A stretch of DNA of 64,000 bases, taken from assembly GCA_903944895.1 (NCBI GenBank), contig CAJATL010000226.1, forward strand, positions 7,762-71,761. Direction: 5' to 3'. Below, piece after piece: positions 1 through 31,715 of the stretch. Under the pieces are notes generated by a model. It searched no databases and had not been told where the DNA came from. It was given only the letters and a program-made list of their open reading frames with translations. Source of the stretch: an uncultured Bacteroidota bacterium. GTDB taxonomy: Bacteria > Bacteroidota > Bacteroidia > Bacteroidales > 4484-276. The translations under genes were made by a program, and so were the position numbers. Positions within the stretch are counted from its first letter, which is position 1. Each line of letters begins with the position of its first letter.

Positions 1-3000
1 CTTGTTCATCCACCATAAGGCTAATGTAGGAATGGTTACCCCAGATATGGCTTTTAGTAAGTACCTCAACCTTGAATCCATTTTCCTATCAATACCTTGT
101 TGCTGTTTTTTGGACAGCATGTCGATCATTTTGAATGTTCCCTGTAACCTTGGATTAAAGAATGGAACCATCATGTTTAATACCTCCCCATAGGTACCAG
201 CTTTTTTGAAGTTAAGCGTAACCTCGTTTGCTGCGTTTGTAGCTTCTATCGCCCGGTCTCTTTTTAGCTTGTAAACCTCTGCCTGATCACCGGCCTGATA
301 AGCTGCTTTTATCCTACCTTCGTATGACCTCATAACGGCGTCGAACTCTGCATACCTTACGCCACTTTCAGTAATTGAAAGGGCTTCTCTGTATGACTTC
401 AATGGGTGTTTAATTATGTGATACCCTACATTTTGAAGTGTGATATCCGCTACTTGCTTCGCGGCTTCCCATGGCGTTGCTGCCCACGTTACTCCCGGGT
501 CCATTTTCTTTTTTAGCATAGCTTCCTGTAATAAGCTATTCATGTTGTCAATATCCTCCCCAAGAAAATTCGACATTTCAACGCCAGACCTTCTGAACTC
601 ATTGATGTATTTTCCGGTGCCAAATGTTTCGGCCCAGATACCCATTAATTGTTTATCAAGCCTGCCACCACCCTTGTATTTGCTTTGAAGTCCTCCGGTT
701 GGAATATCCCTAAGTGGGTTTGTGATCACAGCAAACGATACCTTAAATGCGGTAGCCCCTAACTTAAGCATCATGTTTGGTTTAACTAATAATGTAGTCA
801 TAATCCAATTAAGATGCGTTGGGCGCATACCTTTTGTTATGGCCTCATAGAATAATGGGTGTACTTGGTAGAATACCTTCTTTCCTGTCTCTGGGTCTGG
901 AATCCATACAATGTTTTCGTTTTTCATGGATTGGGTGTAGCCGGCATTTACCCACACATCAAGCAAAGATTCCATGTCAGCGTCAGTAAGGTCTGCGCCA
1001 ATTTTTTCAAGCTGATCCTCTATTTGCCTAATACCAAACTGAACTTTCTTTTTGTCAGAAGATATTTTTTCAAACCAGTTACCAAGTCCGTATTTATGGG
1101 ATTGCTTGTCGGCCATAAAATCAATAAATGCCCTGGCTACCCTTATTGAGTTTGCTGCATTGACTATTGATTCTACCTCCCGGATCATCATCTTTATTGG
1201 CATCCGGATATTTTTATCGCTTCCGCCATGCGTGAATGATTTAATCGGGCTTCCAACGTTGAATATCTTATTACCTCCACCACCAGAAAACGTACCCTTA
1301 TCCAGTACTTTTTTAAGCATGATGTATGATGGGTTTTGTTGTAATATCCTATCTTTGGCTTTTTGGGATAACCCACCGGCCTCAACAAGATAATCCATTA
1401 CCATACTCATAAATTGAGTTAATTCTTCTGTAAATTTTTGTCTTTCAGGTGTGTATAATGTATCTACCAGATGAACTGCTTCATCCAGTGGCATACCAGT
1501 ATTTATCGGGGTTGAATTATTATCCTTATCAACCCTGTTATGGAGATCAATAGCCCTTAATGCCCATGCGTAAAGTATTGCATCTTCAAAATCTTTTTTG
1601 GTTTTAGTAACCGGGCTCATCACTTCTTTTAAGCTCTTGCCGGTTTTTTCAAAGGCATTATTATAAGTTCCACCCAACACAAACCTGTTTGTGGTTAACG
1701 CTGCTGTCTTTTGACGGGAAGCTGCAATTTGCCCGGCGTGTTCAGATGGCCTTACAAAATCAACGCCTGATTGCTGCATCATTCTATTAAATACCCAATC
1801 AATCACAGATAACTTATCTTTCCATTGTGATGCTACTTTTAATGATACCTCCGTGCGCTTATCCTTTGATGTTAAAAACTCTTTGGTATTTTTATAGGCT
1901 CTCGTAAGTTTACCCTCATCCATCATATCAATAGAGTTTAGCGCCCGAAGTCTGGCCCCTTGCATTCTCCATTGAGTTACTTGTTCACGGTACCAGTCAA
2001 TATTTTCCGCCACTTCTTTGTTGGCCGGTTTCCATGTGCCCTCAAACCAAGCCATAAATTTTGGAGCAGCCAATCGTATCGAATCATCCGCACCACTGGC
2101 ATACAACCTCATGTATTCTGCAAAACCTTCCAGTGGGCGTTTTTGTGAAGGATCATAATCAAGGTCAGCAAGCTCTTGTTTCATTTCCGGGGTAAGTTTA
2201 CTTGCCCTACCCTTGGTAATGAAAAATTTATAATCAAGGTCGTGAGCAATTTCGTGAGCAAGCACATCAAGCATTTTGTGTTGTTTGGTGCGAATTACCC
2301 TTGCCCAAGGTTTAAATATCCCAAGCGTTCTACTTCCGGCGTGCATCCGGCCTTTTCTGATCTTCAAATCAAATCTCTTTTCGGCTTCCTTGGTGATCTG
2401 CATTGCATCCACAGGCTTCTTTCCACCAGTTTGATCATCCAGTTCCATATTCATATCCCGCACTTGGGTTTTACCTCCTGCAGCCATAGCATTTACACCA
2501 CCCTCCGGACTACCCTCGTTGAAATCATCAATAATGGCTTGAGCTTCTTCTTGTTTTGTTTTTGGGAGCATCCACCCCTTTTGACTTCCGATCCATTTGG
2601 CTCCAATGCTTTTAAGGGCATCCTTAATGTCAAATGATTCTTTTACGATGATACCATTCGTGCCAAAATCTTCGATAACCGGTTTTTTCTTTTCTGCTGG
2701 TTGCTTTGGTACTCTTACCGGGCCACCGTCAATTTCATCAATTACCCCTTCATCCTCCTTGGTATTTCCTTCCAGCCTGGCTTTATCTAAATCCTCTGTT
2801 CCAGCAACAATAGCCCTGATAACTTTTCTTTTTTCATCAGACCTCTTTTTCCGATTGTTGTCGGATGTGTTTGGGAAGTAAACCATCGTTACTTTGGCCG
2901 GTGATTTTGTGTTTCTCCGACTTACCCTGCCCAATACCTGCTCGAGAACGTCACCAGAATATTCACCTGTTGCGATTATCATTTCCCTGGGGGAATTGCC

Positions 3001-6000
3001 AACAACATCATCGAGATTGATTCCGGTGCCACCGCTTTTCGATGTCATTAACAACACCTTTGCTTTCCCTGATTGAAACTTATCCTGTTCCCGGGAATAT
3101 GCCTTGTTTTTGTTTCCACCGAATATTTTAGCGACCCCAATACCTTCTTTTGCAAGGGCTTGTTCTACCCTATAAATCAACGTTTCTTCTGTTGGTATTT
3201 CTCTCTCGTAAAATCCATATTTAGAACCGGCTGATCCTGCTTTTACTTTTACCTTGTTTACATAGCTGGCCACAACAACCACCTGTTTACCGGCAGCAAG
3301 TGCCTTCTTTACTTTATTATAAACTACATCGAATTTACCGACTTCATTGATTTTATCAATGTTAGCAAGCATCGTGAAACGTTCCTGTTTTTTAAATTCT
3401 TCGATTTTGCTGTGCAACACCCAATAGTTCTGGCTTAAGCTCTTGGATTCGTACTCCTTTTTGAGTTTGGCGTACATATCCTTCTCGGATAATCCTTGAA
3501 TACTCGAAGTATTTAACCCTGTGAATTTATTCATCACAACGTCTTTGACTGTCCTGGCAATTACTATACTCATAGCATTGTCAATCCTGTCGTTATGAAT
3601 TTCTTCGATTTTAGCAACCGTTTGTGGGTTTGAGTACGGGTGCTTATCATTCATCTCATGTTTCTCGTCACCTATATCTCCAAAGAAAGGATATTCCCTT
3701 CTTACCATAGCGCCCTTGGTAATAGCTTCTTTTCTTAGCTCGAGCAATTTTACAATATACTCTTTAACGCCGCCCGGGATTCTGACTATCGGAAATGTTT
3801 CGCCGTTTTTCGTCTTCCATTCGATTTCAACACCTAATCGTTTTTGAATTTCTTTCTGTGGTATGTCTGTGATCTCTGAAAGGAAATATACCGCATGTTC
3901 CGGTTTGTCCATCGGGGTTGCGCTCACAAACATATTGTGCTTGGAGTTTACCTTTGATTGGGCTATTGCTTTTCCGGAAAGCGGGTTTTTAAGGTTCTGG
4001 CTTTCATCGTAAATAGCCAAAGCATATTCGCCTTGTCCAATTTTACCATTTCTCAAATCATCATAGGTCCCGATCTCAAATTTATTGAGATCAATCCCCA
4101 GCGCTTTTGCGTCCTTTACAAAACTATCTTCGATTACATTCCCAAGGGAAACGATAAGCACTTTTCCTTCTCCGCTCATTTCGTTGGCGATCACTTCAAT
4201 CATTCTTGTCTTTCCTACGCCGGCACCATCGGCCAGCAGGAATGATTTTCCTTTCGCTACTTTGAATCTGTCAATTGCGAGGTTTGATGCGAATCTTTGG
4301 TTTTCATCAATGTCGTATTTGCCATCTACAATATGTTCTTTTGAAGGACTTGGTAAACTTCCTTCATCTGCGATTCGTATTGGGGGTCGAACTGCGCCCG
4401 TTGTTCCAGTTGGTCCATTATTGACTGATCCCCCCGCCACGTTTCCTCCGGCTTCCACCCCTTCCTCGTTGGGTTTTCCTGGTACGAATCTTCTGTAATC
4501 GAATCCGCTGATTTCTTTTCCATTTGATAAGCTATTTTTTACTTCTAATGATAAATCTGATTCATCTCTGAATATCTGGTATGCTTCCTGTAGTTTGGGA
4601 AGCCAATCGTTATATCCTTTTTCGGCAAGGTACTTTGCTACGTCCTCAATTTTATAGTAACCAACTTGTACCAGCTTTCCAATAACGCCTACAAATGGTT
4701 GTAATTTTGACAAACCACCAGTTTCAAATACTGGCTTACCAAGCTCTCCAAGTAACCCGTCGATCTCGCCCATGATCTTCTTGATCTTTTCATCATTACG
4801 GGCGAAGGTTATTTTTTCTTTTGGCTTTACGTCTGGTTGGACGTCTGGTTTAGCCCCAAAATTACCGGCATTAAACGGAGTGTGCTGTTTGGCGTCAATA
4901 TGGTACAGCAGGAAACTTCCATTTTCTTCCCGGGTCTGGCCTTTATTGTATTTCAAAGTAGCTGTTACATCATCCTCACCAAAGGTAGTCATTTTTTCGA
5001 TGGTGTAAAAATCACCATACCTATTATCCCAATATTTCTCACCAACCTTGATTTCTAATCCCTTGTACCGTGTTTTGGCACCGTAACTCTTTACTTCCTT
5101 AATTTCATCTTCCGGTTCTTCTTCGATTGCTTTACGCTCGGTAAGTAACCGGTCAAAGATTTTTTTAACCTCTGGGGTTAATGATTTTTCTATTGGGCTA
5201 CCCACTAAGGATTGATAAATGTCAGTAAGCCATGTTTTGAATTTATCAAACAATGACTGCATTTCCGGATCGGGGGCATTGCCATCGCGGAGGTACCTTT
5301 CAAATCCCCGGGCAAAGGCTTCGCTGCCACCAATTCTTTTTACTACGCCCCTTTCAATGTAGTTTAGGTCTCCTTCAAATACGTGAGCAATCTCATGTAC
5401 CATTGTGGAGAAGTCGGGGGATTCAAGTGCGTGAATCACGTACTTGCCATCCTTTAAGGTTTCAAGTGCGCCTTTTTTAATCCCTTCGCCTTCTTGGAAT
5501 TTGAAGTCCGGGTGTATTTCGGATTCTTCACCCCTCATTGGGTATGTAGTTTCCCGGACATCGAATATCTCTGATATGAAATAATGATTGTTGCGCTTTT
5601 GGCTGTAACCCAAAACAGAATCATATCCGGCCTTTCGTACTGCATGGGCAACAATGTTTTCAAGAATGGCGTATTTTAGGGTATTTCCCTGCTTACTTAC
5701 CCTTACCATGTCATAAGCAATGTCGTAATTATCAGAATAATAACTGCCTTCGTTGTACCTGGTAAGTAGGTTTGCAACATCCTCCGGAATGTCTTTTCTA
5801 TTAGACCATTGTCCAAATGGAGATGATAAAGTAGCGTCGTGTACTTTTGCAACCATATCATTATAAGCGCCCTTTCCCTTTATTTGATCATAAGCCGCTT
5901 GTGGTGCTTTACCACCAGTTGCTCCCCGCACAAATATTGGTTTCTTGATTAGGATTTCTCCCTCATGCTTTTCTTTACCGCCATACCCAATCTTGCCATT

Positions 6001-9000
6001 TCTGTAATGCCTTACGTCTGTGGATTTGTATGGAAGGTAAAATACACCAGTTCTTACGCTGTTGGACCCGGATTGATCAGGTTTCTGGTAACGTATGGCT
6101 CTTATGATAAGACCTTCGTCCGTTACTCTTGCTCCTTCTGTAGTTTCAACTGCATCCCTGAAAATGTGATCGGTTGGAAGTTCTGATTTATATTTTAACC
6201 TACCGGCTTGCTCCGGGTTTATCTGGAATTTGGGTAGGCCTTTTTCTACTTCGGCTCTTAGTTCTGGGGTGATATCAATAGAGTGCTGGGTTTGTTTTAC
6301 TTTTCCCAACTTATTTCTTGCCTCAACCGCTTTTTCGTATGTATCGAATAGTTTTGGTTCTTCGCCTGGTTCGCCTATCATCAATTCCCATTTTTTACCA
6401 TTCCTTTCGATTCCTATTTGATCTGGACTTGTTAAGTCTTTGGTTTCAATATCGGTAGTACTTACCTTTTGCTTAAACAGTTTCTCCGCTACTTCTCCAA
6501 TAATGCCAAGTTTACCTTCGGTTGGTGATCCATAGAAACCTTTCATTCCCTTCCCGCCTACCTTTAAACCCTCACCTTCAATTCTTCCTGATTTTTTATC
6601 TGTCAATACTCTTTCAGATAGTTCTTTGCCAATAACGTCTTCCAGGTTTTTACCAACCGATCCTATGCGTTGGTTTTTTTCCTCGGTTATTTTTCCTGTT
6701 TTACTGTCAACATACAGGGTAGTTATTCCGTCTTTATGTGAAATATCAACATACCTATTCCCACCAAACCCGTCTTCATATTGAATATAATCCACTTGTT
6801 TTTCTAAACTCCACCTATCATTCTGCTGCTCACCGGTAGTCCAGGCAATTTTATCAACACCTTGCTTTACTGCTTCTTTTAAAGCTACCTTAAGGCCAAG
6901 TTTTGTCCATGATGCTGTTTCAGTTACGAATGGTGCAGATTGAATGCTTTTTTTCCCAATATTATTTTGATTGTGGTCAAAAAGCTCCTTTTCAATGGCC
7001 TTTTCTTCCGTGTAAGCAACTTGTATGCTTTTTAGCTTGGTTCTTTTATTAAATATTGTAAATATTTTAGTGTTGCCAAGGTGCGGTAAAAATGGATTGT
7101 TCCTTCCAGAATCTTTAGATTCTATTATTTCAAGATCATCTGATTTTAATCCACCACCAATAAAGCCTTCTTTCTTCCCTTTCTGACCCCAATCACTCTG
7201 AACTTCTTCGAGAAATAATACCTTTTTGCCATCGGCACCAACACGGGTGTTCATGCGGAGGTGTACAGCAATGTTTGGTTCGCTGTAATGTGTATCGTTT
7301 ACAAACTGTACATCAGTTTTTGCGCCAGCATTTGCTTTGAGTAAGTCAATGACGTAATCTCTCGATTCGCCGGCCTCAAATGGATTGTAGCCTATGTTTT
7401 TTTCATAAATTTCGGCAAGCTGCTTGTCGGATAATGTTTCGTAATCTACGCCCTTGCCTTGTTTTGGAAGCGTTACCAGTATTTCTTTGTAGTTTTCTTT
7501 TTGGCCTTCGAGTTGGTATTGGGAATGTTTGGTATTGTCAAAGCCATCTTCATTTTGTTCATCAAGAACAATTTTTTTAGCCTCGTTTACTGTTTTTGCC
7601 TCTGACTTATCAACCGTTCTGAATAAAACACTAAGACCATTTTCTTGTCCATAAACGCTCCAATTTCCCGACGCTGTTTTCTGAACCGTTAAATCATTAA
7701 TACCTATTTTATCGTTTGTTCCTTTCACTACCTCCACGATCTCAATCCTGTTATCTTTCAGGAAATTTTGAATGTCGGCTTTGGTTACGCTTCCTGGCTG
7801 TGACTGCAGCCAATCGGTTAATCCAGTCCACTTAGCTTCTTCACCTTTTAATTGACTAAATTTTTCAACCCATTGTTTTGCCGGTAATTTATCATATTTT
7901 GCGTCAATAATTACCTTTTCCAGTGGGGAATAAAACCCATTGACTATCTCCGGAGAAACAGACTTACCATTCACGGTCCGGCCATCAGGTAGCTGGTAAA
8001 GCTTTGTGGTGCCATCCATAAATTCTCCACCACCGACATCGGCGATCCTATCATACCATTCATCGGGGGTTCGGTTTAATATGTCTTCACTTGCCCAGCT
8101 TTTTGCTCTTGCCTCCATTATGGCAATGGCGGCATCTATTTGTTGACCGGGGATGCCTTTTTTACTGAACTCTGCCCTGAATCTTTCGTGGACGTATTGT
8201 TTGTGTTCAGCGGAACTTCGTTTGATCGGCTGTTGAGGGTTTGGAGCATCTGGTTTAACCTGCCCTTTTCCATCTTGTCCAAACTTTGTAATATTGCTTT
8301 TAACTTTTTCATAATTATCAAGACTTTGTTTAAGTACTTCGTCAATAATATCTGCCTTTGTTCTTTCCTTACTTACCCCTGTTTCAAAATCAGTTTCAAG
8401 CTGACCAACGTGAGCGTTATAGTTTTTGATAAACTCTTTGAATTTTCCTTCAAGTTTTATCGCTACGGCGAGGTCGGCTGCATCAAAATTCTTTACCTCA
8501 AACATATTAACCTGCGAGGCCCATCCTTCCAGAGATTGCCCCGTTTTCTTTGCTTCATTGATAATCCCGATGGCGGTTTCTACATTCTTCTGTAAGGAAC
8601 TTTTGCCCAGCGCGGAGTTTTTGATTAAAGGAATAATTGAATCGAGAATCTTGTTGCGGATATCGCCCATTTGGGCTGCATCCAGTGTACGAATTGTTCC
8701 TTCGCTTAATGAAGACCCGAGTAGTATGTTGTTAACTAACGCAACGCCCTCTGCGGTTGATGTTATTGCTTTTTTATCAAAATACCTCGGCATTTCATTT
8801 GGCAATAAAATACCCTCCTCCTCGAACAACTTGATTAACTCTTTAACCTTTTTTGGGTTTGAGGTAACGTCGCTCATTCTGTCGGCAGTCTCGTAAATAC
8901 CATACAATAACCTTCTTGCCCGGTCAGTGATGATCTTGCCGATTTCTATTGCTTTTTCAATTGGAGATTGTGTTTTTTTATCATCCTTGTTAAACTTAGC

Positions 9001-12000
9001 CCAATTTTCTACCGTATAGGGCATTTCCTCTTTAAGTTCAAAAACAAACATCGGATTTTTAATCTTATCAATTTCATTTGGATTAATGCCATACATTTCA
9101 GCATTTTCCTTTAATATTGCTGTAAATTTTTTATCCGTACCCCTTATTGCAGCAAGCTGTCTTCCTGCCGTTCTGTTTGTTCCGCTAAATACAATTCCGC
9201 GTTTGTCAACTATTGGTAATTGGAATACCATTCTATCATCTGGGTTTAATGATACCCTTTCAATTTCACCCTGCTTTGCCACGCTATTCTCATAATCACT
9301 ACTATTAACAGTAGTTCCGTCTGGATTTGTTGGAAAATTTGGATTCTTTGCAAATGTTTCTGGGTTGTGTGAGGGAACAACATCATCACTTGACACGCAT
9401 TTAACTACACCAACAATTCTTTCCCCATTTGCGATTGTCTGCGTCATTGTTCTTCCTACAAGTTGATTCTTACCCTCTTTGTAGTTTTTGTTTCCGATTT
9501 CCGGGGATTGTTCTGGCTTTATGCCTTTCGCTGTATTGTAGTTTTTTAATATCTCCGTGGCAGCATCGAATCCGATTTTGAATTTACGTTGGATTTCACC
9601 AAGCGTTACTTCCCCGTGGATTAATTCTTCAACGTCTTTGAGTGTGATAACCTCACCGTTTTTGCGGGTGTGGAGGATTTTTTCTTCACCGGTTACCGGT
9701 TTAAACCCAGGCATTTTTTTGATGCCAAGTTTATCCAGTACCCGGGATTCGTAAAATTCCTTTTCCTTGCCTTCCGGCATTAACCCATCACGATTTAGCT
9801 GTTCCCAAGCAAGTTCCTTGGCTTGCTCTAATCCAATTCTCATTAATGGAACGCCCTGCCTTTTTGCGTAAAAATTATTCCGGCTATCTTTGAATACTTC
9901 GGCTGAATCCCTTTCTGATGTATTGAATAACCTTTCTATTCTTCCTTTTTGGTCTTTATACAGGTACTCGAGTTCTGAATCAGTCATATCCCACGGCTCT
10001 TTATCAACTTCACCGGCTGGCCTTTCATCTATTGGCATCCCAATTTTTAACTTTTCTCTATTTACCTGGGCCTGAATGGCACTTAATTGATCGGGGGATA
10101 ACTTCTTGCCGTTTGATTTACCTGATTTTAAAATCAACTCACCTTCGGCAATGCTGTTCTTGATTTTTTGAACTTCTGCCGGGTCGGTAACTTCTGGTTT
10201 TTCCTGTGCCGGTTTTTCAGAATGTTTTTTAATCAGTTCTTTGATCTCTGTTTCGTACTGATTTTTAACTTCATCAATGTAGGCTTCCTTGATTTCGAGT
10301 TCATTTTTACCCCTTTGGGTTGCCTTGAATTTTTTTAATGCTGCGTCCTCGATGGAAATTTCTTGTATTTTACCTCTTGCGGTGTTTTCTACTTCATACA
10401 GCTTGTTTTCTTTTTTGTTGTAGCGGATAGTGTTTGTTGACCCGTGATTTGTGGCGTAATGATCGAAAAGATTAACGTATTCTTTTTCTTTGGCCTTTTT
10501 TTCTTCCTCTGCCTCTAAAATTGAAACAATTTCATTTTCTTTTTTAGTTAGTTCATCAACCCGGCCCCGAAGTTCTTGTATTTTACCTGCATTTCCTTTT
10601 TCGTCTTCTTTTTCAAGGTCAATAATCTGATTATTCAAATCAAATATTTCGTTCCTAACTACAGATAAATCATTTCTGGTAACGGGCTTAATTTCTGGAT
10701 TTGGTGGAGGTACTGGTTTTTTTTGTTCAACCGGCTTTTCAACCTTTTTCTGTTCCTTCGGTGTAAATTCACCAACCAACACTTCTTCCCGGGTTTTGTC
10801 AATAATTACTTGGCGCTCGGCCTCAAGTTTCTCGAGTTCTGGTTGTAGTTTATCAATTTCCTCGGAAGCCTGTGCCATTTCCTCGTCGGACTTCGGGTTG
10901 CCTATTTTTTCATCAATGGCCTTAATTTTGATGCTTAACTTATCAATTTTAGCATTTATCTCTTTGGTGTTTTTCTCAACCTCCGAATCAGCAATTGATA
11001 AAATATCAACTTCCTGCTGTTTCAATAGTTCAATCTGGGCATCAATTTCTGACATCTTTGCTAATGTCTCATTTGTTACCACACCATTTGCTAAAATGTC
11101 TTCGTTTTGAATCTTTTCAGTTTCGGAAGTTAGTTCGGTAATCTTGTTTCTTACCGAGGATAATGCGTCGCGATTTGTAAGTTTTACCTCTGTGGGTGCG
11201 GGCTGTGGCTTCTTTTTTTCTTCCTCTAATTTCTTTACTTCTTCTGCTTTGGCTTTTTCTTCCGCAAGCACGTCAATAGTCCTGTCAATTTCGGCGTACA
11301 GGTCTTCAACAACCTTTTGTTCATTTGGAAGCCTTTCGCTGGGCATCATGGCTATATATGGCTCAATGCCATTAAGAAGACCTTCTTCTTTAAGTTTGGC
11401 CATAGTTACTTCGCCAATTCTTTTACGTTGTTCATCGGGGAGCGCCCAAAGTTTGTTCAGGTATTTGTTGTTTAATGAAAGGTGATTGTACTTATCAACC
11501 GATTGCTGTGCATCAGCCGGATTATCATAAAACTCTGATACCAATAAATTACCTCTACGATCTCTTATGTCAACATACGCACCATATTCTGTTGTGCGAA
11601 GGGTAACATCATCTGCAGGAATATCGTTCATTGGAGCCATTCCCTTGGAGCCAAAAAGTATTTTTCTCTTTACGCTCTCTGGAATGTTTTTATTAATGAT
11701 AAGTTCGTGTAATCCATACTCACTTAATGGTCTTACCATATCAATATCGGCCATCCTTTTCTTTTTCCCAAATTCATCACGAACGGACATTCTTTTTTCC
11801 CATGGCAATAGAAAATCATATTTATCTAAAGCATGAAGTTCTCCAGCTGTGAATTTTATCTCTTTCCTTAATTTAGCCTTTGCTCTTTCGTTCTTAAATG
11901 CACTTATCTCATGGGCTATTCCTTTTGCCTTCATAAATCCGAGCATAGCAACGCTCTCCATAAAGTCTTCGGAGGTTACTTCTGATAACCGGCCTTCAAG

Positions 12001-13878
12001 TGCAGCGCCACCATAAACAAAAAGCGCGTTTTCCACACCAAATGATGTAGCCCCCAAGCTAAATCTTGCTCCTTTTTTTAATGCTGGATTGTTTATGGTC
12101 TTGTTTATGGTGTTCATTCCCATTGAAGACACGGCAGAAAGAACGCCAAGCCCTGATCCTATAATAGTACCTTTACCGGCAGCAGTTAATGTTTCAAGAA
12201 CGTGATAATCTTTTAATGATAATTCCGGGTTAGCGGATATTTCAGTTCCCTGTCTTAAAATATCTTGTATTGCGTCATATCCACCAAGCATAGATGCAGA
12301 TGGCAGCGCTGCCTTAATCACCCCTTGGGTTAATGGTTTTGTTAAAAATGATTTTGATCCGCGTAACATGGCTTTTTCAGCCATCCTTACGGCTAATTGT
12401 TTTGATGCTCCTGCAGTAACAAACCTTTTCGCTACGTTCTCTGTAATCTTTGCTAACGCTACTTTGGCGGCGTACTTTCCTGGGGCGGCCAAAAGACCGA
12501 ATAGCGGTGCGTCAAATGAAATACTTACGGCCCCGGCAGCACCCCTTTCAATCCAATTTGAAGGATATTTATCTTCATGTATTCTTCCCTCAATCATTTG
12601 AGTTACAACACCCGGAATACTTCCATAAGCTCCCTGCGTAAGAATAAATTCAGCAGATGATTTTGATGCTGTTTGCTTTAAATATTCATCATTGGCAGCA
12701 AGCATGTACTCATTATATGTTTTTACTACCTCTTTATTTACATATTCTTCGAGGGCTGGGCCAACATCTCCATCAACTTTGTTTGTGTAAATTTCAGAAA
12801 ATATTTTTTTGTACTCATCTTCTGATTGTGGATTTCTGGATAATGCTTCTTCGTGAGAAGCCCTCTCAATTTCTGATAAACGCTCCTGTACCTGTGGCTT
12901 TTCGGTAAATTCTTTGATTTTTTTATCTTGGATTGCTCCGGTTAACTCCAATGCAATATCTTGTTGAATTTGCATTGGATTATAATCAGTATCTTCTAAT
13001 TGTTTTAACCTTGCAAATGCTGTTTTAGCGACTGAAAGCACAGCGCTTCCACCAACAACATAATCAGTAATAGTTTTTAGTACGGATTTATCTTGGCCTT
13101 TTACCTCATTTATTTTATCAACAACCCTTTGTTTTCTTTTTTCAATTTCTGAAAATACCTTACTGCCAATTTCTTCTTTTTTACCTTCAATAGTTTCAGC
13201 CCATATTCTTTTGTTGTCTTGGGTTACGATTTCATTGTAAATTTTATCGTCAGCCTGTTTTCCAGATAAATCAAATGCCTTTTCGTTTTTAGGGTCAATA
13301 ACGTAAACCGAACCGTTGAGGGCTGCTTTAAATGCCTTATCGTTCATTGATGTTTCTTTCATCATCACTGGAACGTCGGACATACTAAACTCTCCCGTTT
13401 TCATTGGAGATATATTAGTTTGCTTTCCGGAAGAATCAGGCGTTTCTTGGGCTTGTTTTTGTGGTATGGTGTCACCGACAACTACCGGTTGCTCTGGTTG
13501 AATTATTTGTTCATCTTCTTCTGGCGAAGGGCTTGGAGATTTTGGACCACGCGAGTAAAACCATTTCGACAAGCCTCCCTGAACAGCATCCTGAAAAGTA
13601 GGAATTGGTTCCGAATTGTCTTTTTTTTTTACTTCACTGGCTTCCGGGTGTTTGTTTAAAAATCCAGATACTTTATCTTCTGGGATATCATACAACGAGC
13701 CATTAAGATCATATCGCACTACTTTTTGCTTTGCAACTGGTGTGCTTGTAGCTGCCGGAGGCGGTGTACTTTGTGATTGTTCTTTAGCTTCCGGATATTT
13801 AGCAAGAAATCCATCAATTTTATCGCTTGGGATTGCGTACATTTTTTCACCTACAACGAAATTCTTTACATCTGGCAT
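1..13878 (-). CDS. giant multidomain polyvalent-type virion/ejection protein, partial (>4626 codons; C-terminus lies left of window)
   Basis: Own translation of the minus strand. ATG at 13878 gives MPDVKNFVVGEKMYAIPSDK... The frame stays open and protein-like: checked codon by codon over 13878-11400 and 9420-1, read through elsewhere. It ends at base 1 in ...ISGVTIPTLALWWMNK. No stop lies inside the window, so the supplied track omitted it; the + strand here carries only short shadow ORFs. Confidence 0.85.
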   Translation of the reverse strand, partial: MPDVKNFVVGEKMYAIPSDKIDGFLAKYPEAKEQSQSTPPPAATSTPVAKQKVVRYDLNGSLYDIPEDKVSGFLNKHPEASEVKKKDNSEPIPTFQDAVQGGLSKWFYSRGPKSPSPSPEEDEQIIQPEQPVVVGDTIPQKQAQETPDSSGKQTNISPMKTGEFSMSDVPVMMKETSMNDKAFKAALNGSVYVIDPKNEKAFDLSGKQADDKIYNEIVTQDNKRIWAETIEGKKEEIGSKVFSEIEKRKQRVVDKINEVKGQDKSVLKTITDYVVGGSAVLSVAKTAFARLKQLEDTDYNPMQIQQDIALELTGAIQDKKIKEFTEKPQVQERLSEIERASHEEALSRNPQSEDEYKKIFSEIYTNKVDGDVGPALEEYVNKEVVKTYNEYMLAANDEYLKQTASKSSAEFILTQGAYGSIPGVVTQMIEGRIHEDKYPSNWIERGAAGAVSISFDAPLFGLLAAPGKYAAKVALAKITENVAKRFVTAGASKQLAVRMAEKAMLRGSKSFLTKPLTQGVIKAALPSASMLGGYDAIQDILRQGTEISANPELSLKDYHVLETLTAAGKGTIIGSGLGVLSAVSSMGMNTINKTINNPALKKGARFSLGATSFGVENALFVYGGAALEGRLSEVTSEDFMESVAMLGFMKAKGIAHEISAFKNERAKAKLRKEIKFTAGELHALDKYDFLLPWEKRMSVRDEFGKKKRMADIDMVRPLSEYGLHELIINKNIPESVKRKILFGSKGMAPMNDIPADDVTLRTTEYGAYVDIRDRRGNLLVSEFYDNPADAQQSVDKYNHLSLNNKYLNKLWALPDEQRKRIGEVTMAKLKEEGLLNGIEPYIAMMPSERLPNEQKVVEDLYAEIDRTIDVLAEEKAKAEEVKKLEEEKKKPQPAPTEVKLTNRDALSSVRNKITELTSETEKIQNEDILANGVVTNETLAKMSEIDAQIELLKQQEVDILSIADSEVEKNTKEINAKIDKLSIKIKAIDEKIGNPKSDEEMAQASEEIDKLQPELEKLEAERQVIIDKTREEVLVGEFTPKEQKKVEKPVEQKKPVPPPNPEIKPVTRNDLSVVRNEIFDLNNQIIDLEKEDEKGNAGKIQELRGRVDELTKKENEIVSILEAEEEKKAKEKEYVNLFDHYATNHGSTNTIRYNKKENKLYEVENTARGKIQEISIEDAALKKFKATQRGKNELEIKEAYIDEVKNQYETEIKELIKKHSEKPAQEKPEVTDPAEVQKIKNSIAEGELILKSGKSNGKKLSPDQLSAIQAQVNREKLKIGMPIDERPAGEVDKEPWDMTDSELEYLYKDQKGRIERLFNTSERDSAEVFKDSRNNFYAKRQGVPLMRIGLEQAKELAWEQLNRDGLMPEGKEKEFYESRVLDKLGIKKMPGFKPVTGEEKILHTRKNGEVITLKDVEELIHGEVTLGEIQRKFKIGFDAATEILKNYNTAKGIKPEQSPEIGNKNYKEGKNQLVGRTMTQTIANGERIVGVVKCVSSDDVVPSHNPETFAKNPNFPTNPDGTTVNSSDYENSVAKQGEIERVSLNPDDRMVFQLPIVDKRGIVFSGTNRTAGRQLAAIRGTDKKFTAILKENAEMYGINPNEIDKIKNPMFVFELKEEMPYTVENWAKFNKDDKKTQSPIEKAIEIGKIITDRARRLLYGIYETADRMSDVTSNPKKVKELIKLFEEEGILLPNEMPRYFDKKAITSTAEGVALVNNILLGSSLSEGTIRTLDAAQMGDIRNKILDSIIPLIKNSALGKSSLQKNVETAIGIINEAKKTGQSLEGWASQVNMFEVKNFDAADLAVAIKLEGKFKEFIKNYNAHVGQLETDFETGVSKERTKADIIDEVLKQSLDNYEKVKSNITKFGQDGKGQVKPDAPNPQQPIKRSSAEHKQYVHERFRAEFSKKGIPGQQIDAAIAIMEARAKSWASEDILNRTPDEWYDRIADVGGGEFMDGTTKLYQLPDGRTVNGKSVSPEIVNGFYSPLEKVIIDAKYDKLPAKQWVEKFSQLKGEEAKWTGLTDWLQSQPGSVTKADIQNFLKDNRIEIVEVVKGTNDKIGINDLTVQKTASGNWSVYGQENGLSVLFRTVDKSEAKTVNEAKKIVLDEQNEDGFDNTKHSQYQLEGQKENYKEILVTLPKQGKGVDYETLSDKQLAEIYEKNIGYNPFEAGESRDYVIDLLKANAGAKTDVQFVNDTHYSEPNIAVHLRMNTRVGADGKKVLFLEEVQSDWGQKGKKEGFIGGGLKSDDLEIIESKDSGRNNPFLPHLGNTKIFTIFNKRTKLKSIQVAYTEEKAIEKELFDHNQNNIGKKSIQSAPFVTETASWTKLGLKVALKEAVKQGVDKIAWTTGEQQNDRWSLEKQVDYIQYEDGFGGNRYVDISHKDGITTLYVDSKTGKITEEKNQRIGSVGKNLEDVIGKELSERVLTDKKSGRIEGEGLKVGGKGMKGFYGSPTEGKLGIIGEVAEKLFKQKVSTTDIETKDLTSPDQIGIERNGKKWELMIGEPGEEPKLFDTYEKAVEARNKLGKVKQTQHSIDITPELRAEVEKGLPKFQINPEQAGRLKYKSELPTDHIFRDAVETTEGARVTDEGLIIRAIRYQKPDQSGSNSVRTGVFYLPYKSTDVRHYRNGKIGYGGKEKHEGEILIKKPIFVRGATGGKAPQAAYDQIKGKGAYNDMVAKVHDATLSSPFGQWSNRKDIPEDVANLLTRYNEGSYYSDNYDIAYDMVRVSKQGNTLKYAILENIVAHAVRKAGYDSVLGYSQKRNNHYFISEIFDVRETTYPMRGEESEIHPDFKFQEGEGIKKGALETLKDGKYVIHALESPDFSTMVHEIAHVFEGDLNYIERGVVKRIGGSEAFARGFERYLRDGNAPDPEMQSLFDKFKTWLTDIYQSLVGSPIEKSLTPEVKKIFDRLLTERKAIEEEPEDEIKEVKSYGAKTRYKGLEIKVGEKYWDNRYGDFYTIEKMTTFGEDDVTATLKYNKGQTREENGSFLLYHIDAKQHTPFNAGNFGAKPDVQPDVKPKEKITFARNDEKIKKIMGEIDGLLGELGKPVFETGGLSKLQPFVGVIGKLVQVGYYKIEDVAKYLAEKGYNDWLPKLQEAYQIFRDESDLSLEVKNSLSNGKEISGFDYRRFVPGKPNEEGVEAGGNVAGGSVNNGPTGTTGAVRPPIRIADEGSLPSPSKEHIVDGKYDIDENQRFASNLAIDRFKVAKGKSFLLADGAGVGKTRMIEVIANEMSGEGKVLIVSLGNVIEDSFVKDAKALGIDLNKFEIGTYDDLRNGKIGQGEYALAIYDESQNLKNPLSGKAIAQSKVNSKHNMFVSATPMDKPEHAVYFLSEITDIPQKEIQKRLGVEIEWKTKNGETFPIVRIPGGVKEYIVKLLELRKEAITKGAMVRREYPFFGDIGDEKHEMNDKHPYSNPQTVAKIEEIHNDRIDNAMSIVIARTVKDVVMNKFTGLNTSSIQGLSEKDMYAKLKKEYESKSLSQNYWVLHSKIEEFKKQERFTMLANIDKINEVGKFDVVYNKVKKALAAGKQVVVVASYVNKVKVKAGSAGSKYGFYEREIPTEETLIYRVEQALAKEGIGVAKIFGGNKNKAYSREQDKFQSGKAKVLLMTSKSGGTGINLDDVVGNSPREMIIATGEYSGDVLEQVLGRVSRRNTKSPAKVTMVYFPNTSDNNRKKRSDEKRKVIRAIVAGTEDLDKARLEGNTKEDEGVIDEIDGGPVRVPKQPAEKKKPVIEDFGTNGIIVKESFDIKDALKSIGAKWIGSQKGWMLPKTKQEEAQAIIDDFNEGSPEGGVNAMAAGGKTQVRDMNMELDDQTGGKKPVDAMQITKEAEKRFDLKIRKGRMHAGSRTLGIFKPWARVIRTKQHKMLDVLAHEIAHDLDYKFFITKGRASKLTPEMKQELADLDYDPSQKRPLEGFAEYMRLYASGADDSIRLAAPKFMAWFEGTWKPANKEVAENIDWYREQVTQWRMQGARLRALNSIDMMDEGKLTRAYKNTKEFLTSKDKRTEVSLKVASQWKDKLSVIDWVFNRMMQQSGVDFVRPSEHAGQIAASRQKTAALTTNRFVLGGTYNNAFEKTGKSLKEVMSPVTKTKKDFEDAILYAWALRAIDLHNRVDKDNNSTPINTGMPLDEAVHLVDTLYTPERQKFTEELTQFMSMVMDYLVEAGGLSQKAKDRILQQNPSYIMLKKVLDKGTFSGGGGNKIFNVGSPIKSFTHGGSDKNIRMPIKMMIREVESIVNAANSIRVARAFIDFMADKQSHKYGLGNWFEKISSDKKKVQFGIRQIEDQLEKIGADLTDADMESLLDVWVNAGYTQSMKNENIVWIPDPETGKKVFYQVHPLFYEAITKGMRPTHLNWIMTTLLVKPNMMLKLGATAFKVSFAVITNPLRDIPTGGLQSKYKGGGRLDKQLMGIWAETFGTGKYINEFRRSGVEMSNFLGEDIDNMNSLLQEAMLKKKMDPGVTWAATPWEAAKQVADITLQNVGYHIIKHPLKSYREALSITESGVRYAEFDAVMRSYEGRIKAAYQAGDQAEVYKLKRDRAIEATNAANEVTLNFKKAGTYGEVLNMMVPFFNPRLQGTFKMIDMLSKKQQQGIDRKMDSRLRYLLKAISGVTIPTLALWWMNK
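2150..2330 (-). other. zincin-like HExxH motif 2 within giant ORF
   Basis: LDVLAHEIAHDLDYKF; codons at 2239-2256. Confidence 0.5.
2900..4260 (-). other. SNF2-family helicase domain within giant ORF
   Basis: Motif I LLADGAGVGKT (4207-4227). Motif II IYDESQNLKN (3994-4008). Motif III SATP. Motif V LLMTSKSGGTGINLDD (3008-3046). Motif VI LGRVSRRN. Confidence 0.8.
5250..5480 (-). other. zincin-like HExxH motif 1 within giant ORF
   Basis: FSTMVHEIAHVFEGDL; the HEIAH codons lie at 5383-5397. Confidence 0.5.
6850..8000 (-). other. conserved uncharacterised module within giant ORF
   Basis: FYSPLEKVI..LPAKQWVEKF..KGEEAKWTGLTDWL ... HLRMNTRVGADGKKVLFLEEVQSDWGQKGKKEGF ... DKIAWTTGEQQNDRW. I recall similar strings in plasmid and phage polyvalent proteins but cannot name the family. 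Confidence 0.3.
9150..9420 (-). other. ParB/Srx-like (DdrB-ParB type) region within giant ORF
   Basis: SSDDVVPSHNPETF ... QLPIVDKRGIVFSGTNRTAGRQLA. The SH(D/N)P plus G(T/N)NR pattern is typical of ParB-like domains in polyvalent proteins, recalled from memory. Confidence 0.4.
9540..9640 (-). other. FtsK-gamma-like winged-helix motif within giant ORF
   Basis: VTLGEIQRKFKIGFDAATEIL resembles the FtsK gamma signature (s.lQRr.riGynRAarii), recalled from memory. Confidence 0.35.
10200..11350 (-). other. Lys/Glu-rich coiled-coil region with internal repeat, within giant ORF
   Basis: Heptad-like K/E-rich sequence. A repeated block occurs twice: TNRDALSSVRNKITELTSE and TRNDLSVVRNEIFDLNNQ. Confidence 0.5.
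12000..12550 (-). other. Gly/Ala-rich hydrophobic, membrane-insertion-like segments within giant ORF
   Basis: Translated segments: GAAGAVSISFDAPLFGLLAAPG, GKGTIIGSGLGVLSAVSSMG, LGATSFGVENALFVYGGAAL. Confidence 0.4.
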
Positions 13879-13890
13879 GATCAATGGTTT

Positions 13891-15102
13891 TTATTTTACC
13901 GGTAAAGGTACTTCAAATTTAGCATATTCATCTGGCTCATATTCTACAACGATTTTATTCTGTTTTGCGTATCGCTCAACATCATCCCATGGCACATAAA
14001 AACGGGTCTCTACAACCTTAGATATTCCTGGAGCCGTAACAGTTCCTCCAATTGCTCCTAACGATCCACCAATGCTTGATGTCTGCTGTTCTTCTTTTGG
14101 TTTAGTGAGTATTGCCCATTTTTTATCGCCAACATATCTCGCCCCAACTACCTTTGACCCAGCAAGTGATTCTGATGGATCTTTGTCATTTACAGCCTTG
14201 CTTTGCCCGTTTGGCGCATCCCAATATTTTGTAATTCCAGATACCGGAAATTCATCGAACAATATCTCGTCACCTTCTTTAGTAAGTGGATACACCTTTA
14301 ATTCTTTGTCGGTACCGTCACCAGTTTTTTGCTTACCAATAAGGGTTGATTTACCTGCTATTTTTGGACTTACGGCCATTCCTTTTGCCATATAGTCTTC
14401 TTTATTTTTAAACCACCCATCATTAAGATAATCTTGGCCTCTTACTTGCCAGTTAGCTTCAAGTGCATTTTTCCAATTTTCGACATTAAGTACCTTCCCC
14501 CCTTGTTCAACATTATATTTTTGAGTTCCGGCGTCTTTATCGCCTACTGTTACCGGTGCGGCATCATAAAAATTCTTTGCCATCTTGTCGAACATATCAA
14601 CTGGTGGAGGTGTAGTTTTTACTGACAACCACGCACCGGACTGTACGGCTTGTAATCTTTGGTCAAGGGGTAATTTTGCAATTTCATCAAGCGCCTTTAG
14701 TGATTCTTCCCTGTTTATTTTACCGCTTTTATCGAAAGTAACACCCTTCACGGCATCATACATTGATTGCTTTGCTTCGACATAATTACTCACATAAGAT
14801 TCAAGCCCTTTTACGTTTTCATTAACCTTCATGTAATCCCTGGGGGAAAGTTTAGCCCCACTATTTTTGTAGATTTTAGCTGTTTCTTCGAGCAACTTGT
14901 CCTGCAAGGCAAGATACCCCTCCCTGTCCTGTCCATAAACCGGATAAAATGACTTATCAACTATCTTTTGAAATTCATCAATCTTTTGACTTTTTTCCTG
15001 ATAGTCTTGCTGTAAAATGTTCATGTTCATTTGAGCAACCCCTTGAAGGGCTTGATCCATTTTACCAGAATCCGGTAGTATTGTTACTCCACTTTGAAAC
15101 AT
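13891..15102 (-). CDS. hypothetical virion/internal protein (403 aa)
   Basis: Track ORF. Stop lies 12 nt before the giant ORF start. Co-oriented in the late operon. Confidence 0.7.
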   Translation of the reverse strand: MFQSGVTILPDSGKMDQALQGVAQMNMNILQQDYQEKSQKIDEFQKIVDKSFYPVYGQDREGYLALQDKLLEETAKIYKNSGAKLSPRDYMKVNENVKGLESYVSNYVEAKQSMYDAVKGVTFDKSGKINREESLKALDEIAKLPLDQRLQAVQSGAWLSVKTTPPPVDMFDKMAKNFYDAAPVTVGDKDAGTQKYNVEQGGKVLNVENWKNALEANWQVRGQDYLNDGWFKNKEDYMAKGMAVSPKIAGKSTLIGKQKTGDGTDKELKVYPLTKEGDEILFDEFPVSGITKYWDAPNGQSKAVNDKDPSESLAGSKVVGARYVGDKKWAILTKPKEEQQTSSIGGSLGAIGGTVTAPGISKVVETRFYVPWDDVERYAKQNKIVVEYEPDEYAKFEVPLPVK

Positions 15103-15114
15103 ATCAAATTTATA

Positions 15115-30154: not shown

Positions 30155-30172
30155 TTTATAGTTTAGTTTTAC
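30155..30172 (-). promoter_or_regulatory. leader motif copy (GTAAAACTAAACTATAAA-ATG)
   Basis: Reverse complement of + strand TTTATAGTTTAGTTTTAC, directly upstream of the ATG at 30154. Confidence 0.45.
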
Positions 30173-30606: not shown

Positions 30607-30621
30607 ATTTAACTCAAACTA

Positions 30622-31341: not shown

Positions 31342-31345
31342 GGCG

Positions 31346-31596: not shown

Positions 31597-31602
31597 GAGC
31601 AA

Positions 31603-31708: not shown

Positions 31709-31715
31709 AGCGCAA

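What the first reader, a model, noticed from the sequence alone, without database searches (positions are those of the whole stretch)
1..13878. A >13.8 kb uninterrupted minus-strand ORF that the supplied ORF track does not show
The track lists only short + strand ORFs across the first 13.9 kb. Translating the minus strand from ATG 13878 gives continuous, protein-like sequence with no TAA, TAG or TGA down to base 1. Codons occupy positions 3k+1..3k+3. I checked codon by codon over 13878-11400 and 9420-1 and read through the rest. The ORF leaves the window without a stop, which explains why an ATG-to-stop caller dropped it. If any in-frame stop existed, the upstream piece would have appeared in the track, and none does. 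At more than 4626 codons it would be among the largest phage-encoded proteins.
Basis: seen in the sequence. Interest (0 to 1): 0.9.

Follow-up and report, generated by a model that had tools for sequence, protein, structure and literature searches.

The report
Giant phage virion "polyvalent" ejection protein
The stop-free minus-strand frame is a real 14.9 kb phage gene for a 4,973-residue multi-enzyme protein, probably packed in the capsid and injected with the DNA; this type of protein is already known, and this one is large but not a record.

Summary
The minus-strand frame from ATG 13878 to base 1 has 4,626 codons and no stop (chance about 1e-145). Its codon usage matches the neighbouring late genes.

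A near-identical JGI metagenome contig (1 mismatch in 9,840 nt) carries the frame 347 codons further to a TAA. The complete protein is therefore 4,973 aa, about 558 kDa.

The gene is the last one of a podovirus-type virion gene block (terminase, portal, capsid, muzzle-like protein, two small ORFs, then the giant).

The domain order is:
- an orphan N-terminal region of about 1,440 aa
- a DdrB-type ParB module
- an uncharacterised conserved module
- a zincin peptidase
- an SF2/SNF2-like helicase
- a second zincin
- an LPD38 C-terminal module

This is the architecture of phage "polyvalent proteins" (Iyer et al. 2017). Experimentally virion-associated examples are Burkholderia phage JC1 gp69 (4,515 aa) and phi24B gp47.

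No RNA polymerase signature was found.

Among the 150 best family relatives, 17 are longer, up to 7,283 aa. So it is a new, large member of a known kind. Packaging and function are inferred, not shown.

The parts
1..13878 (-). Giant ORF, codons 1-4626 of 4,973. The last 347 codons and the TAA stop lie beyond base 1 of the window and are seen on L063 at 9841-10884.
13876..13878 (-). ATG start codon. It lies 12 nt downstream of the stop (13891-13893) of the preceding gene. A TTG at 13882-13884 is an alternative start.
9550..13878 (-). N-terminal region, aa 1-1443, with no detectable homologue. It contains two short similar motifs (aa 12-33 and 61-82), Pro-rich linkers and K/E-rich segments that are probably helical.
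   Evidence: Not covered by the second contig.
11899..12591 (-). Gly/Ala-rich hydrophobic stretch, aa about 430-660. It is a possible membrane-active or conduit segment (inference). It has a weak match to P0011 aa 293-371.
8230..9519 (-). DdrB-type ParB module, aa 1454-1883. The Pfam ddrB-ParB core is aa about 1494-1612 (nt 9043-9399). This is the most conserved part, about 50% identical to P0009-P0011.
6199..8094 (-). Module X, aa 1929-2560. It is a conserved but unnamed module that recurs in other giant ParB-bearing proteins and in phage proteins encoded next to portal genes.
5119..5478 (-). Zincin-like metallopeptidase 1, aa 2801-2920. Its HEIAH motif is at aa 2828-2832 (nt 5383-5397), followed by a downstream EAFA motif.
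   Evidence: (phrog_9880).
2551..4845 (-). SF2/SNF2-like helicase module, aa 3012-3776. It has motif I GAGVGKT, motif II DESQ and motif VI QVLGRVSRR.
   Evidence: 48% identity to P0021, 46% to P0095.
1999..2448 (-). Zincin-like metallopeptidase 2, aa 3811-3960. Its HEIAH motif is at aa 3875-3879 (nt 2242-2256). HExxH and EGFAE are invariant in the family alignment.
1..1692 (-). First 60% of the conserved C-terminal 'chassis' module, aa 4063-4626, matching positions 4-482 of a 773-column profile. The Pfam LPD38 domain proper (aa 4627-4802) starts just past the window edge.
13891..15894 (-). Two small ORFs (403 aa and 259 aa) between the muzzle-like gene and the giant. Relatives have the same arrangement. 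They may be small cargo or ejection proteins (inference).
15898..19284 (-). Muzzle-like or distal-tail structural protein (1,128 aa), shown as context for the position of the giant.
   Evidence: phrog_14478, E 9e-39; crAss_MUZ_C, 22.2 bits, below the cut-off.

Best explanation
The frame is one real late gene, the last in the virion-morphogenesis block of an uncultivated podovirus-type phage. The phage is distantly related to Flavobacteriia podophages and crAss-like phages. The gene encodes a 4,973-aa (about 558 kDa) 'polyvalent' protein. The proposed mechanism is inferred, not shown. The conserved C-terminal module (zincin 2 plus the LPD38 region) would act as the chassis that gets the protein packed into the capsid and ejected through the tail ahead of, or with, the DNA, like the large internal virion or ejection proteins of other podoviruses. 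The fused upstream modules would be delivered effectors that act on the incoming DNA or on host defences in the first minutes of infection, as in the phage P1 Dar anti-restriction system. These modules are the DdrB-type ParB, the unnamed module X and the SF2/SNF2-like translocase. The two zincin peptidase domains would cut the polyprotein into working units. The N-terminal 1,440 aa, with a hydrophobic Gly/Ala-rich stretch and long helical K/E-rich segments, may help form the trans-envelope conduit.
For: Shown: the gene is real. There are no stops in 4,626 codons. In-frame codon usage correlates at r = 0.90 with 12 neighbouring late genes, against about 0.3 out of frame, and is uniform along the ORF. 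A second contig is 99.99% identical over 9.84 kb and supplies the stop.

Shown: context. TerL, a portal-sized ORF homologous to the annotated portals of relatives, MCP, muzzle-like protein, two small ORFs and the giant all lie on one strand. A large ORF occupies the same position in relatives. It has 2,352 aa in IMGVR_UViG_3300037234_000386, 2,458 aa in L062, 3,859 aa in MW202828.1 and 1,829 aa in Maribacter phage Panino.

Shown: domains.
- ddrB-ParB scores 28.8 bits against a cut-off of 27.6.
- Helicase_C scores 25.7 bits against 23.5, and motifs I, II and VI are intact.
- There are two HExxH...E zincin signatures. The second has invariant H, E, H and EGFAE in the alignment.
- LPD38 scores 94.2 bits against a cut-off of 27 on the extension.
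- A C-terminal module profile built without the window sequence hits the giant at E = 8e-82. It also hits the C-termini of the syntenic proteins of relatives at E = 1.4e-43 and 3e-14. In every full-length protein that matches the whole module, the module ends the protein.

From the literature:
- Polyvalent proteins combine these same domains, and DdrB-ParB and LPD38 are specific to the phage type (PMC5512222).
- The LPD38-bearing giants JC1 gp69 (4,515 aa) and phi24B gp47 were detected in purified virions by mass spectrometry (PMC9144972; bioRxiv 10.64898/2026.04.10.717836).
- In Pelagibacter phage Lederberg the homologue lies after tail tubular proteins A and B and an annotated internal virion protein. 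From my own knowledge of T7 gene order, that is the slot of the T7 gp16 internal core protein.
Against: Packaging, ejection, proteolytic processing and any anti-restriction activity are untested for this protein. The link to the virion-proven examples runs through a shared Pfam domain, not close similarity. The zincin domains did not hit any Pfam peptidase model. The SNF2-specific Pfam models score below their cut-offs. The DarB-type methyltransferase partner is absent from the giant. Structure models were poor (mean pLDDT 55.7 and 48.5) and gave no significant fold match. About 45% of the protein has no assignable function: the N-terminal 1,440 aa, module X and the linkers. The N-terminal 4 kb (window 9841-13878) has no independent sequence support.
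Confidence: 0.7

Rival explanations
1. It is the crAss-type virion RNA polymerase or 'transcription block' protein. In crAss-like phages these giant cargo proteins sit in the same place after the tail genes.
For: In PhiCrAss001 the muzzle gene is followed by two smaller cargo genes and then the giant RNAP-associated proteins gp47, gp49 and gp50, all carried in the virion (PMC10172136). The window has the same order. crAss RNAPs are extremely divergent (PMC7886860), and 1,440 aa at the N-terminus are unassigned.
Against: There is no match to any solved structure at E <= 1. From my own knowledge the PDB includes the phi14:2 gp66 virion RNAP, but I did not check that it is in the copy searched. 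The only DxDxD in 4,626 aa lies inside zincin 2. All recognisable domains are those of polyvalent proteins. The N-terminal region is low-complexity and helical rather than barrel-like. The Epsilon group of crAss-like phages, which includes Cellulophaga phage phi17:2, lacks the transcription block (PMC7886860), and Cellulophaga phages are among the nearest cultured relatives by TerL.
Confidence: 0.05
2. The single long frame is an assembly artefact. Under this view two or more genes or two phage variants were joined, or stops were lost through consensus errors.
For: The window comes from an unidentified assembly. The first 4,038 nt of the gene (9841-13878) have no second source, and no homologue of the N-terminal 1,400 aa was found.
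Against: An independent contig agrees over 9,840 nt with 1 mismatch and no indels. Codon usage and GC1/2/3 are uniform in every 500-codon block, including across position 9840. No repeats longer than 33 nt exist that could misjoin contigs. Homologues carry the same modules contiguously in the same order: ParB then X in P0024, and ParB, helicase, zincin, LPD38 in P0043. They also have long N-terminal extensions of 800-1,400 aa before ParB.
Confidence: 0.04
3. It is a real giant multi-enzyme protein but is not packaged. It would work only inside the infected cell, for example in DNA segregation, replication or defence against other elements.
For: ParB-like and SF2 helicase domains also occur in intracellular replication and partition systems. 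Packaging has not been shown for this protein.
Against: The gene is co-oriented with, and directly abuts, the virion gene block, 12 nt after the previous stop. The C-terminal module is shared with proteins in internal-virion-protein positions of podoviruses. Its LPD38 domain is found in proteins detected in virions (PMC9144972; bioRxiv 10.64898/2026.04.10.717836). The replication genes (DnaB, methyltransferase) lie elsewhere in the window.
Confidence: 0.15

Closest known systems
Bcep22-like podovirus giant 'DarB-like' virion proteins (Burkholderia phage JC1 gp69, 4,515 aa; Bcep22 gp75)
   Same: It is a single giant gene at the end of the virion-morphogenesis block of a podovirus of about 60 kb and takes up about a fifth of the genome. 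It has an LPD38 domain near the C-terminus and an SNF2/HepA-type helicase. JC1 gp69 was found in purified virions by mass spectrometry (PMC9144972).
   Different: No BLAST-level similarity was seen. No Burkholderia phage appears in the organism tallies printed, although the second tally is truncated ('and 3 more'). JC1 gp69 has an N-terminal lytic transglycosylase and an adenine methylase, which the window protein lacks. The window protein has a DdrB-ParB module, module X and two zincins. The likely host phylum also differs (probably Bacteroidota, against Burkholderia).
Polyvalent proteins of phages and conjugative elements (Iyer, Burroughs, Anand, de Souza, Aravind 2017; PMC5512222)
   Same: The domain vocabulary and logic are the same: zincin MPTase, DdrB-ParB, SWI2/SNF2 ATPase and LPD38 in one polypeptide, encoded next to virion genes of a portal-terminase phage. 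DdrB-ParB and LPD38 are listed there as specific to the phage type.
   Different: This class is defined by architecture, not by a single family. The window protein adds an orphan N-terminus of about 1,440 aa and an unnamed module. The Pfam MPTase models did not match.
Phage P1 Dar anti-restriction system (DarB, DdrB and partners)
   Same: A DdrB-type ParB domain and an SNF2-type helicase are carried in the capsid and protect incoming DNA in cis from type I restriction (PMC5512222; PMC9144972).
   Different: In P1 these are separate proteins of a myovirus, and DarB includes a methyltransferase. Here everything is fused, and the only related methyltransferase-like gene is a separate 244-aa ORF at 48992-49726. 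No activity was tested.
phi24B gp47 (2,811 aa; LPD5, LPD1, LPD38 and a MuF-C metallopeptidase)
   Same: It is an LPD38-bearing giant with a metallopeptidase. It is abundant in virions by proteomics but invisible in the cryo-EM map, and it is proposed to be an ejection protein (bioRxiv 10.64898/2026.04.10.717836).
   Different: It is about half the size and has other accessory domains. It comes from a lambdoid Stx podophage of E. coli.
crAss-like phage cargo and virion RNAP proteins (PhiCrAss001 gp47, gp49, gp50; phi14:2 gp66)
   Same: The genomic position is the same, after the muzzle gene and two smaller cargo genes. They are giant proteins stored in the capsid and ejected (PMC10172136).
   Different: No RNAP motif or similarity was found. 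It is one polypeptide rather than three.
T7-like large internal core or ejection protein (positional analogue: Pelagibacter phage Lederberg gene 8, 1,254 aa)
   Same: The C-terminal module of the giant is homologous to Lederberg_8 (blastp E = 2e-18, and it is part of the module profile). That gene lies after tail tubular proteins A and B and an annotated internal virion protein.
   Different: Lederberg_8 is a quarter of the size and carries no ParB or helicase module. No similarity to T7 gp16 itself was demonstrated.

Membership tests
Phage-type polyvalent protein (Iyer et al. 2017) | Several (2-15) conflict-related domains from the defined set in one large polypeptide | tested here: met
   ddrB-ParB, an SF2/SNF2-like helicase, two zincin signatures and LPD38 occur in one 4,973-aa ORF.
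Phage-type polyvalent protein (Iyer et al. 2017) | Encoded by a portal-terminase phage, in the neighbourhood of virion genes | tested here: met
   TerL, a portal-sized ORF homologous to annotated portals of relatives, MCP and a muzzle-like protein lie upstream on the same strand.
Phage-type polyvalent protein (Iyer et al. 2017) | Zincin-like metallopeptidase (MPTase) domain as hub or processing domain | tested here: inconclusive
   There are two HEIAH...E(A/G)FA signatures. In the family alignment H, E, H and EGFAE of the second are invariant. The first lies in phrog_9880. No Pfam peptidase model matched.
Phage-type polyvalent protein (Iyer et al. 2017) | Protein is transferred into the host together with the DNA (capsid-packaged) | not testable with these tools
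   This is inferred only from gene position and from LPD38-bearing proteins found in virions (PMC9144972; bioRxiv 10.64898/2026.04.10.717836).
LPD38 (Pfam PF18857) | Match above the Pfam gathering score | tested here: met
   The score is 94.2 bits against a cut-off of 27, E = 1.4e-26, covering the full model 1-189, at aa 4627-4802. The domain lies on the L063 extension, just outside the window. The window holds the conserved region preceding it.
DdrB-like ParB (Pfam PF18763) | Match above the Pfam gathering score and conserved ParB-type G-x-x-R motif | tested here: met
   The score is 28.8 bits against a cut-off of 27.6 on a 560-aa piece, and 25.2 bits on the whole protein. Homologues P0009-P0013 carry PF18763. 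H1504, N1525, D1528, Y1529, G1566, R1569 and T1570 match residues that are near-invariant across 152 sequences. Three other near-invariant residues differ: T1567 for N, and S1526-S1527 for D-R.
SWI2/SNF2 (or Strawberry-notch-like) ATPase | SF2 helicase motifs plus a family-specific Pfam match | tested here: inconclusive
   Helicase_C scores 25.7 bits against 23.5 (met). Motifs I (GAGVGKT), II (DESQ) and VI (QVLGRVSRR) are present. SNF2-rel_dom scores 20.2 against 24.9 and AAA_34 scores 23.3 against 27, both below cut-off.
P1 DarB-type methylase-helicase dyad | N6-adenine methyltransferase fused to the SNF2 helicase | tested here: not met
   No methyltransferase hit was found anywhere in the giant in Pfam, PHROGs or NCBIfam. 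A separate 244-aa methyltransferase-like gene exists at 48992-49726.
crAss-type virion RNA polymerase | Two double-psi beta-barrels with a DxDxD catalytic motif, and similarity to known crAss RNAPs | tested here: not met
   No PDB sequence match at E <= 1. The only DxDxD lies in zincin 2. No fold match was found, but the models were poor.
Crassvirales / crAss-like phages (the host genome) | Signature structural genes (crAss MCP, portal, muzzle) and a giant transcription block | tested here: inconclusive
   crAss_MUZ_C scores 22.2 bits against a cut-off of 27, and SU10_MCP scores 24.9 against 24.1. There is no sequence match of the muzzle-like protein or the MCP to any solved crassvirus structure. 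The nearest cultured TerLs, at 28-30% identity, belong to Flavobacterium, Cellulophaga and Maribacter podophages.

The most novel reading that the evidence does not exclude
In this lineage of Bacteroidota-type podophages, related to crAss-like phages, the slot that crAss phages use for their virion RNA polymerase has been taken over by an expanding polyvalent ejection protein. Its about 1,440-aa N-terminus has no detectable homologue in about 5.8 billion proteins. That N-terminus and the conserved but unnamed module X would encode previously undescribed injected activities, for example a new envelope-spanning conduit or a new anti-defence enzyme.
Probability: 0.2. Interest if true: 0.5.

Novelty: new member of a known kind. 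Interest (0 to 1): 0.3.

Why it matters
It corrects the gene map of this phage. About 14.9 kb, roughly a fifth of a genome of more than 65 kb, is one gene that ordinary ORF callers drop at a contig edge. It adds a very large, well-delimited example to the class of injected multi-enzyme phage proteins. Its modular make-up is clear: a ParB module and a C-terminal chassis shared with relatives of 2.3-2.7k aa, plus inserted X, zincin and helicase modules. This illustrates how such proteins grow by module insertion. It also marks two stretches worth experimental attention, the orphan N-terminus and module X. It does not change current understanding of phage biology.

Tried and rejected
- **Exact 40-mer scans.** Scans with window bases 1-40 found nothing in IMG/VR, the JGI metagenome contigs or the GTDB genomes. 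The extension came instead from the protein-representative search.
- **Megablast against phages.** Megablast of 1-13878 and 14000-38000 against 50,697 phage records gave no match.
- **Whole-protein homology search.** It timed out, so pieces were used. The N-terminal 1,400 aa gave no hit, and local jackhmmer against 164 collected relatives gave none either.
- **PDB sequence search of the whole protein.** Nothing at E <= 1.
- **Family libraries.** NCBIfam gave only a weak helicase hit. PHROGs gave only phrog_9880.
- **AlphaFold2 models.** The model of aa 3800-4973 had mean pLDDT 55.7 and the model of aa 1900-2930 had 48.5, both from thin alignments of 9-10 sequences. Foldseek against the PDB gave no hit at E <= 0.001 for either, so no fold-based inference is made.
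- **Pfam on module X relatives.** Only flanking domains were found and no name for X.
- **RNA polymerase reading.** Rejected for lack of any motif or match.
- **Muzzle-protein query for syntenic relatives.** It failed. Walking along one TerL relative worked.
- **MW202828.1 giant.** The 3,859-aa protein at the syntenic position shows no similarity to the window giant or to the C-terminal module profile.
- **crAss relationship.** The muzzle-like protein and the MCP have no sequence match to solved crassvirus structures, so the crAss relationship is left open.
Full report
**Observation**

Translating the reverse complement of window 1-13878 gives 4,626 codons with no stop, starting at ATG 13876-13878.
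- The frame is open up to 13890. The TAA at 13891-13893 ends the preceding gene (13891..15102). A TTG two codons upstream of the ATG is a possible alternative start.
- With the composition of that strand a stop is expected every 14 codons or so, so the chance of 4,626 stop-free codons is about 1e-145. The other five frames hold 130-460 stops.
- The mechanical ORF list shows only short + strand ORFs there. By design it omits ORFs that run off the source, which explains the empty track.

**Is it a gene, and is the assembly sound?**

- Codon usage in frame correlates at r = 0.90 with 12 neighbouring minus-strand late genes, against about 0.3 for the two shifted frames. Each 500-codon block behaves alike, with r between 0.77 and 0.89; only the final 126-codon remnant is lower, at 0.63.
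- No repeat longer than 33 nt is present.
- A HMMER search of 1.84 billion representative proteins with the ParB module returned P0018, a 100% identical 3,607-aa protein. It is encoded on JGI metagenome 3300045650 contig Ga0486090_13010 (L063, 10,999 bp).
- L063 bases 1-9840 equal window 9840-1 with 1 mismatch and no gap. The frame is open from the first base of that contig and continues 347 codons past the window edge to TAA.
- The complete protein therefore has 4,973 aa, about 558 kDa, and the gene is 14,922 nt.
- Before this contig was found, a profile of the C-terminal module had predicted that about 290 residues were missing.
- Only window 9841-13878 (aa 1-1346) lacks a second source.

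**Genomic context**

The giant closes a co-oriented virion block:

| Gene | Coordinates | Evidence |
|---|---|---|
| TerL | 31729-33948 | phrog_6681, E = 4e-65 |
| Portal-sized ORF | 27254-29626 | 790 aa; no family hit of its own; about 30% identical to ORFs next to TerL in 48 related loci, annotated as portal in MW202828.1 and Panino |
| MCP | 24658-26085 | SU10_MCP |
| Muzzle-like protein | 15898-19284 | phrog_14478; crAss_MUZ_C below cut-off |
| Small ORF | 15115-15894 | 259 aa |
| Small ORF | 13891-15102 | 403 aa |
| Giant | 1-13878 | this finding |

- The nearest cultured TerLs, at 28-30% identity, belong to Flavobacterium 'elemo', Cellulophaga and Maribacter podophages. IMG/VR relatives reach 48%.
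- Large ORFs occupy the same slot in relatives:
  - 2,352 aa after a 1,252-aa muzzle homologue and ORFs of 237 and 526 aa in IMGVR_UViG_3300037234_000386
  - 2,458 aa after ORFs of 1,579, 265 and 621 aa in a Logan contig
  - 3,859 aa in MW202828.1 and 1,829 aa in Maribacter phage Panino
- In PhiCrAss001 the same slot holds cargo proteins C1 and C2 followed by the giant RNAP-associated proteins (PMC10172136).
- Relation to Crassvirales proper is left open. The muzzle-like protein and the MCP have no sequence match to solved crassvirus structures.

**Anatomy of the protein**

| Residues | Module | Basis |
|---|---|---|
| 1-1443 | No detectable homologue. Two short similar motifs at the very N-terminus, Pro-rich linkers, a Gly/Ala-rich hydrophobic stretch (about 430-660) and K/E-rich helical segments | |
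| 1454-1883 | DdrB-type ParB module, about 50% identical to proteins of 2.3-2.7k aa. 1,410 detectable relatives. Most near-invariant residues retained | |
| 1929-2560 | Module X, conserved in other giants and in an 847-aa protein encoded two genes after the portal in MW202675.1. Not in Pfam or PHROGs | |
| 2801-2920 | Zincin 1 (HEIAH...EAFA; phrog_9880) | |
| 3012-3776 | SF2/SNF2-like helicase with motifs I, II and VI intact. 46-48% identical to the same module in P0021 and P0095 | |
| 3811-3960 | Zincin 2, with HExxH and EGFAE invariant across the family | |
| 4063-about 4850 | Conserved C-terminal module. Its Pfam LPD38 domain (aa 4627-4802; 94.2 bits against a cut-off of 27) begins one residue past the window edge | |

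Relatives carry subsets of these modules in the same order. P0024 has ParB then X. P0043 has ParB, helicase, zincin and LPD38. P0009 and P0011 have ParB then LPD38. Related IMG/VR giants of 3.5-4.1k aa keep the C-terminal 950 aa but swap their middles. So the window protein looks like the 2.3-2.7k-aa form expanded by inserted modules.

**What it most likely does**

The architecture is that of phage-type polyvalent proteins, for which DdrB-ParB and LPD38 are listed as phage-specific and the zincin is proposed to process the polyprotein (PMC5512222).

The C-terminal module is shared with three kinds of protein:
- Pelagibacter phage Lederberg gene 8. It lies after tail tubular proteins A and B and an annotated internal virion protein, which by T7 gene order (my own knowledge) is the slot of the large internal core protein.
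- Through LPD38, JC1 gp69 (4,515 aa) and phi24B gp47, both detected in virions by mass spectrometry (PMC9144972; bioRxiv 10.64898/2026.04.10.717836).

I therefore infer a capsid-packaged protein that is ejected with the DNA. Its ParB and translocase modules would act on the incoming genome or on host defences, as in the P1 Dar system, and it may be cut by its own zincins. None of these steps is shown for this protein.

**Rivals**

- A crAss-type virion RNAP is unlikely. There is no PDB sequence match, and the only DxDxD lies in zincin 2.
- An assembly artefact is unlikely for the reasons given above.
- A non-packaged intracellular role cannot be excluded without proteomics.

**Size in perspective**

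| Protein | Length | Source |
|---|---|---|
| Window giant | 4,973 aa | |
| JC1 gp69 | 4,515 aa | PMC9144972 |
| N4 vRNAP | about 3,500 aa | PMC13434306 |
| Thermus phage P23-45 tape measure | 5,002 aa | bioRxiv 10.1101/2022.12.01.518664 |

Among the 150 best relatives of the ParB module, 21 exceed 4,626 aa and 17 exceed 4,973 aa. The longest has 7,283 aa, carries PBECR1, helicase and LPD38 domains, and lies on a 191 kb contig among phage-like genes.

**Verdict**

The ORF is real and now has a known end. It is a new, large member of a described class. It is not a new kind of system and not a size record. Interest is modest. The open items are the orphan N-terminus and module X.

Noticed in passing
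window 46328-46402 (+): Rfam type-P3 twister ribozyme (RF03154), 44.6 bits against a gathering score of 39.9, E = 2.8e-6, full-length model match. It overlaps the 3' end of ORF 45866..46360 in the + strand block of small, presumably early, genes.
   Followed up: no
window 48992-49726 (+): Stand-alone 244-aa methyltransferase-like gene. Its best PHROG matches are internal stretches of very long profiles (1,259-3,925 positions), that is, the methylase domain that other phages carry inside their polyvalent giants. Here it is a separate gene, while the giant lacks a methylase.
   Followed up: partly
window 59884-60981 (-): Integrase-like gene (phrog_1, E = 2e-27), next to a DNA methyltransferase (58541-59512) and a DnaB-like helicase (56692-58131). 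This suggests a temperate lifestyle.
   Followed up: no
window 34611-35729 (-) and 51523-52452 (-): Two glycosyltransferase-like genes (phrog_26101, E = 2e-32; phrog_2170, E = 4e-11). One lies directly upstream of the small gene that precedes TerL.
   Followed up: no
window 30001-32000: Low-GC patch (0.334 against about 0.40 elsewhere) between the portal and TerL genes. It holds three small ORFs (29774-31407) and a gap of about 320 nt.
   Followed up: no
window about 36000 and about 50000: GC and AT skew flip sign at about 36 kb and about 50 kb, matching strand switches. A + strand block of small ORFs lies between two minus-strand blocks. No tRNA genes were found in the window.
   Followed up: no
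L001-L006 (IMG/VR contigs of 19-66 kb): These loci carry unrelated-looking giants: 3,516 aa in L001 and L003, at least 3,935 aa (cut by the locus edge) in L002, L005 and L006, and at least 1,641 aa in the truncated L004. Where the parts overlap they share a C-terminal 950 aa at 77-97% identity, but their middle parts are swapped or rearranged, a clear case of module shuffling.
   Followed up: partly
L064 10001-31852 (NCBI GCA_045534785.1, JAZSKJ010000010.1): A 7,283-aa protein with PBECR1, helicase and LPD38 domains on a 191.5 kb contig among small phage-like genes. It is far larger than the window protein.
   Followed up: no
L056 741-12320 (-) (MW202828.1): A 3,859-aa CDS at the syntenic position of a 60.8 kb podovirus genome is annotated 'reticulocyte binding/rhoptry protein', which is evidently a mis-annotation. 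It shows no similarity to the window giant or to the C-terminal module profile.
   Followed up: partly
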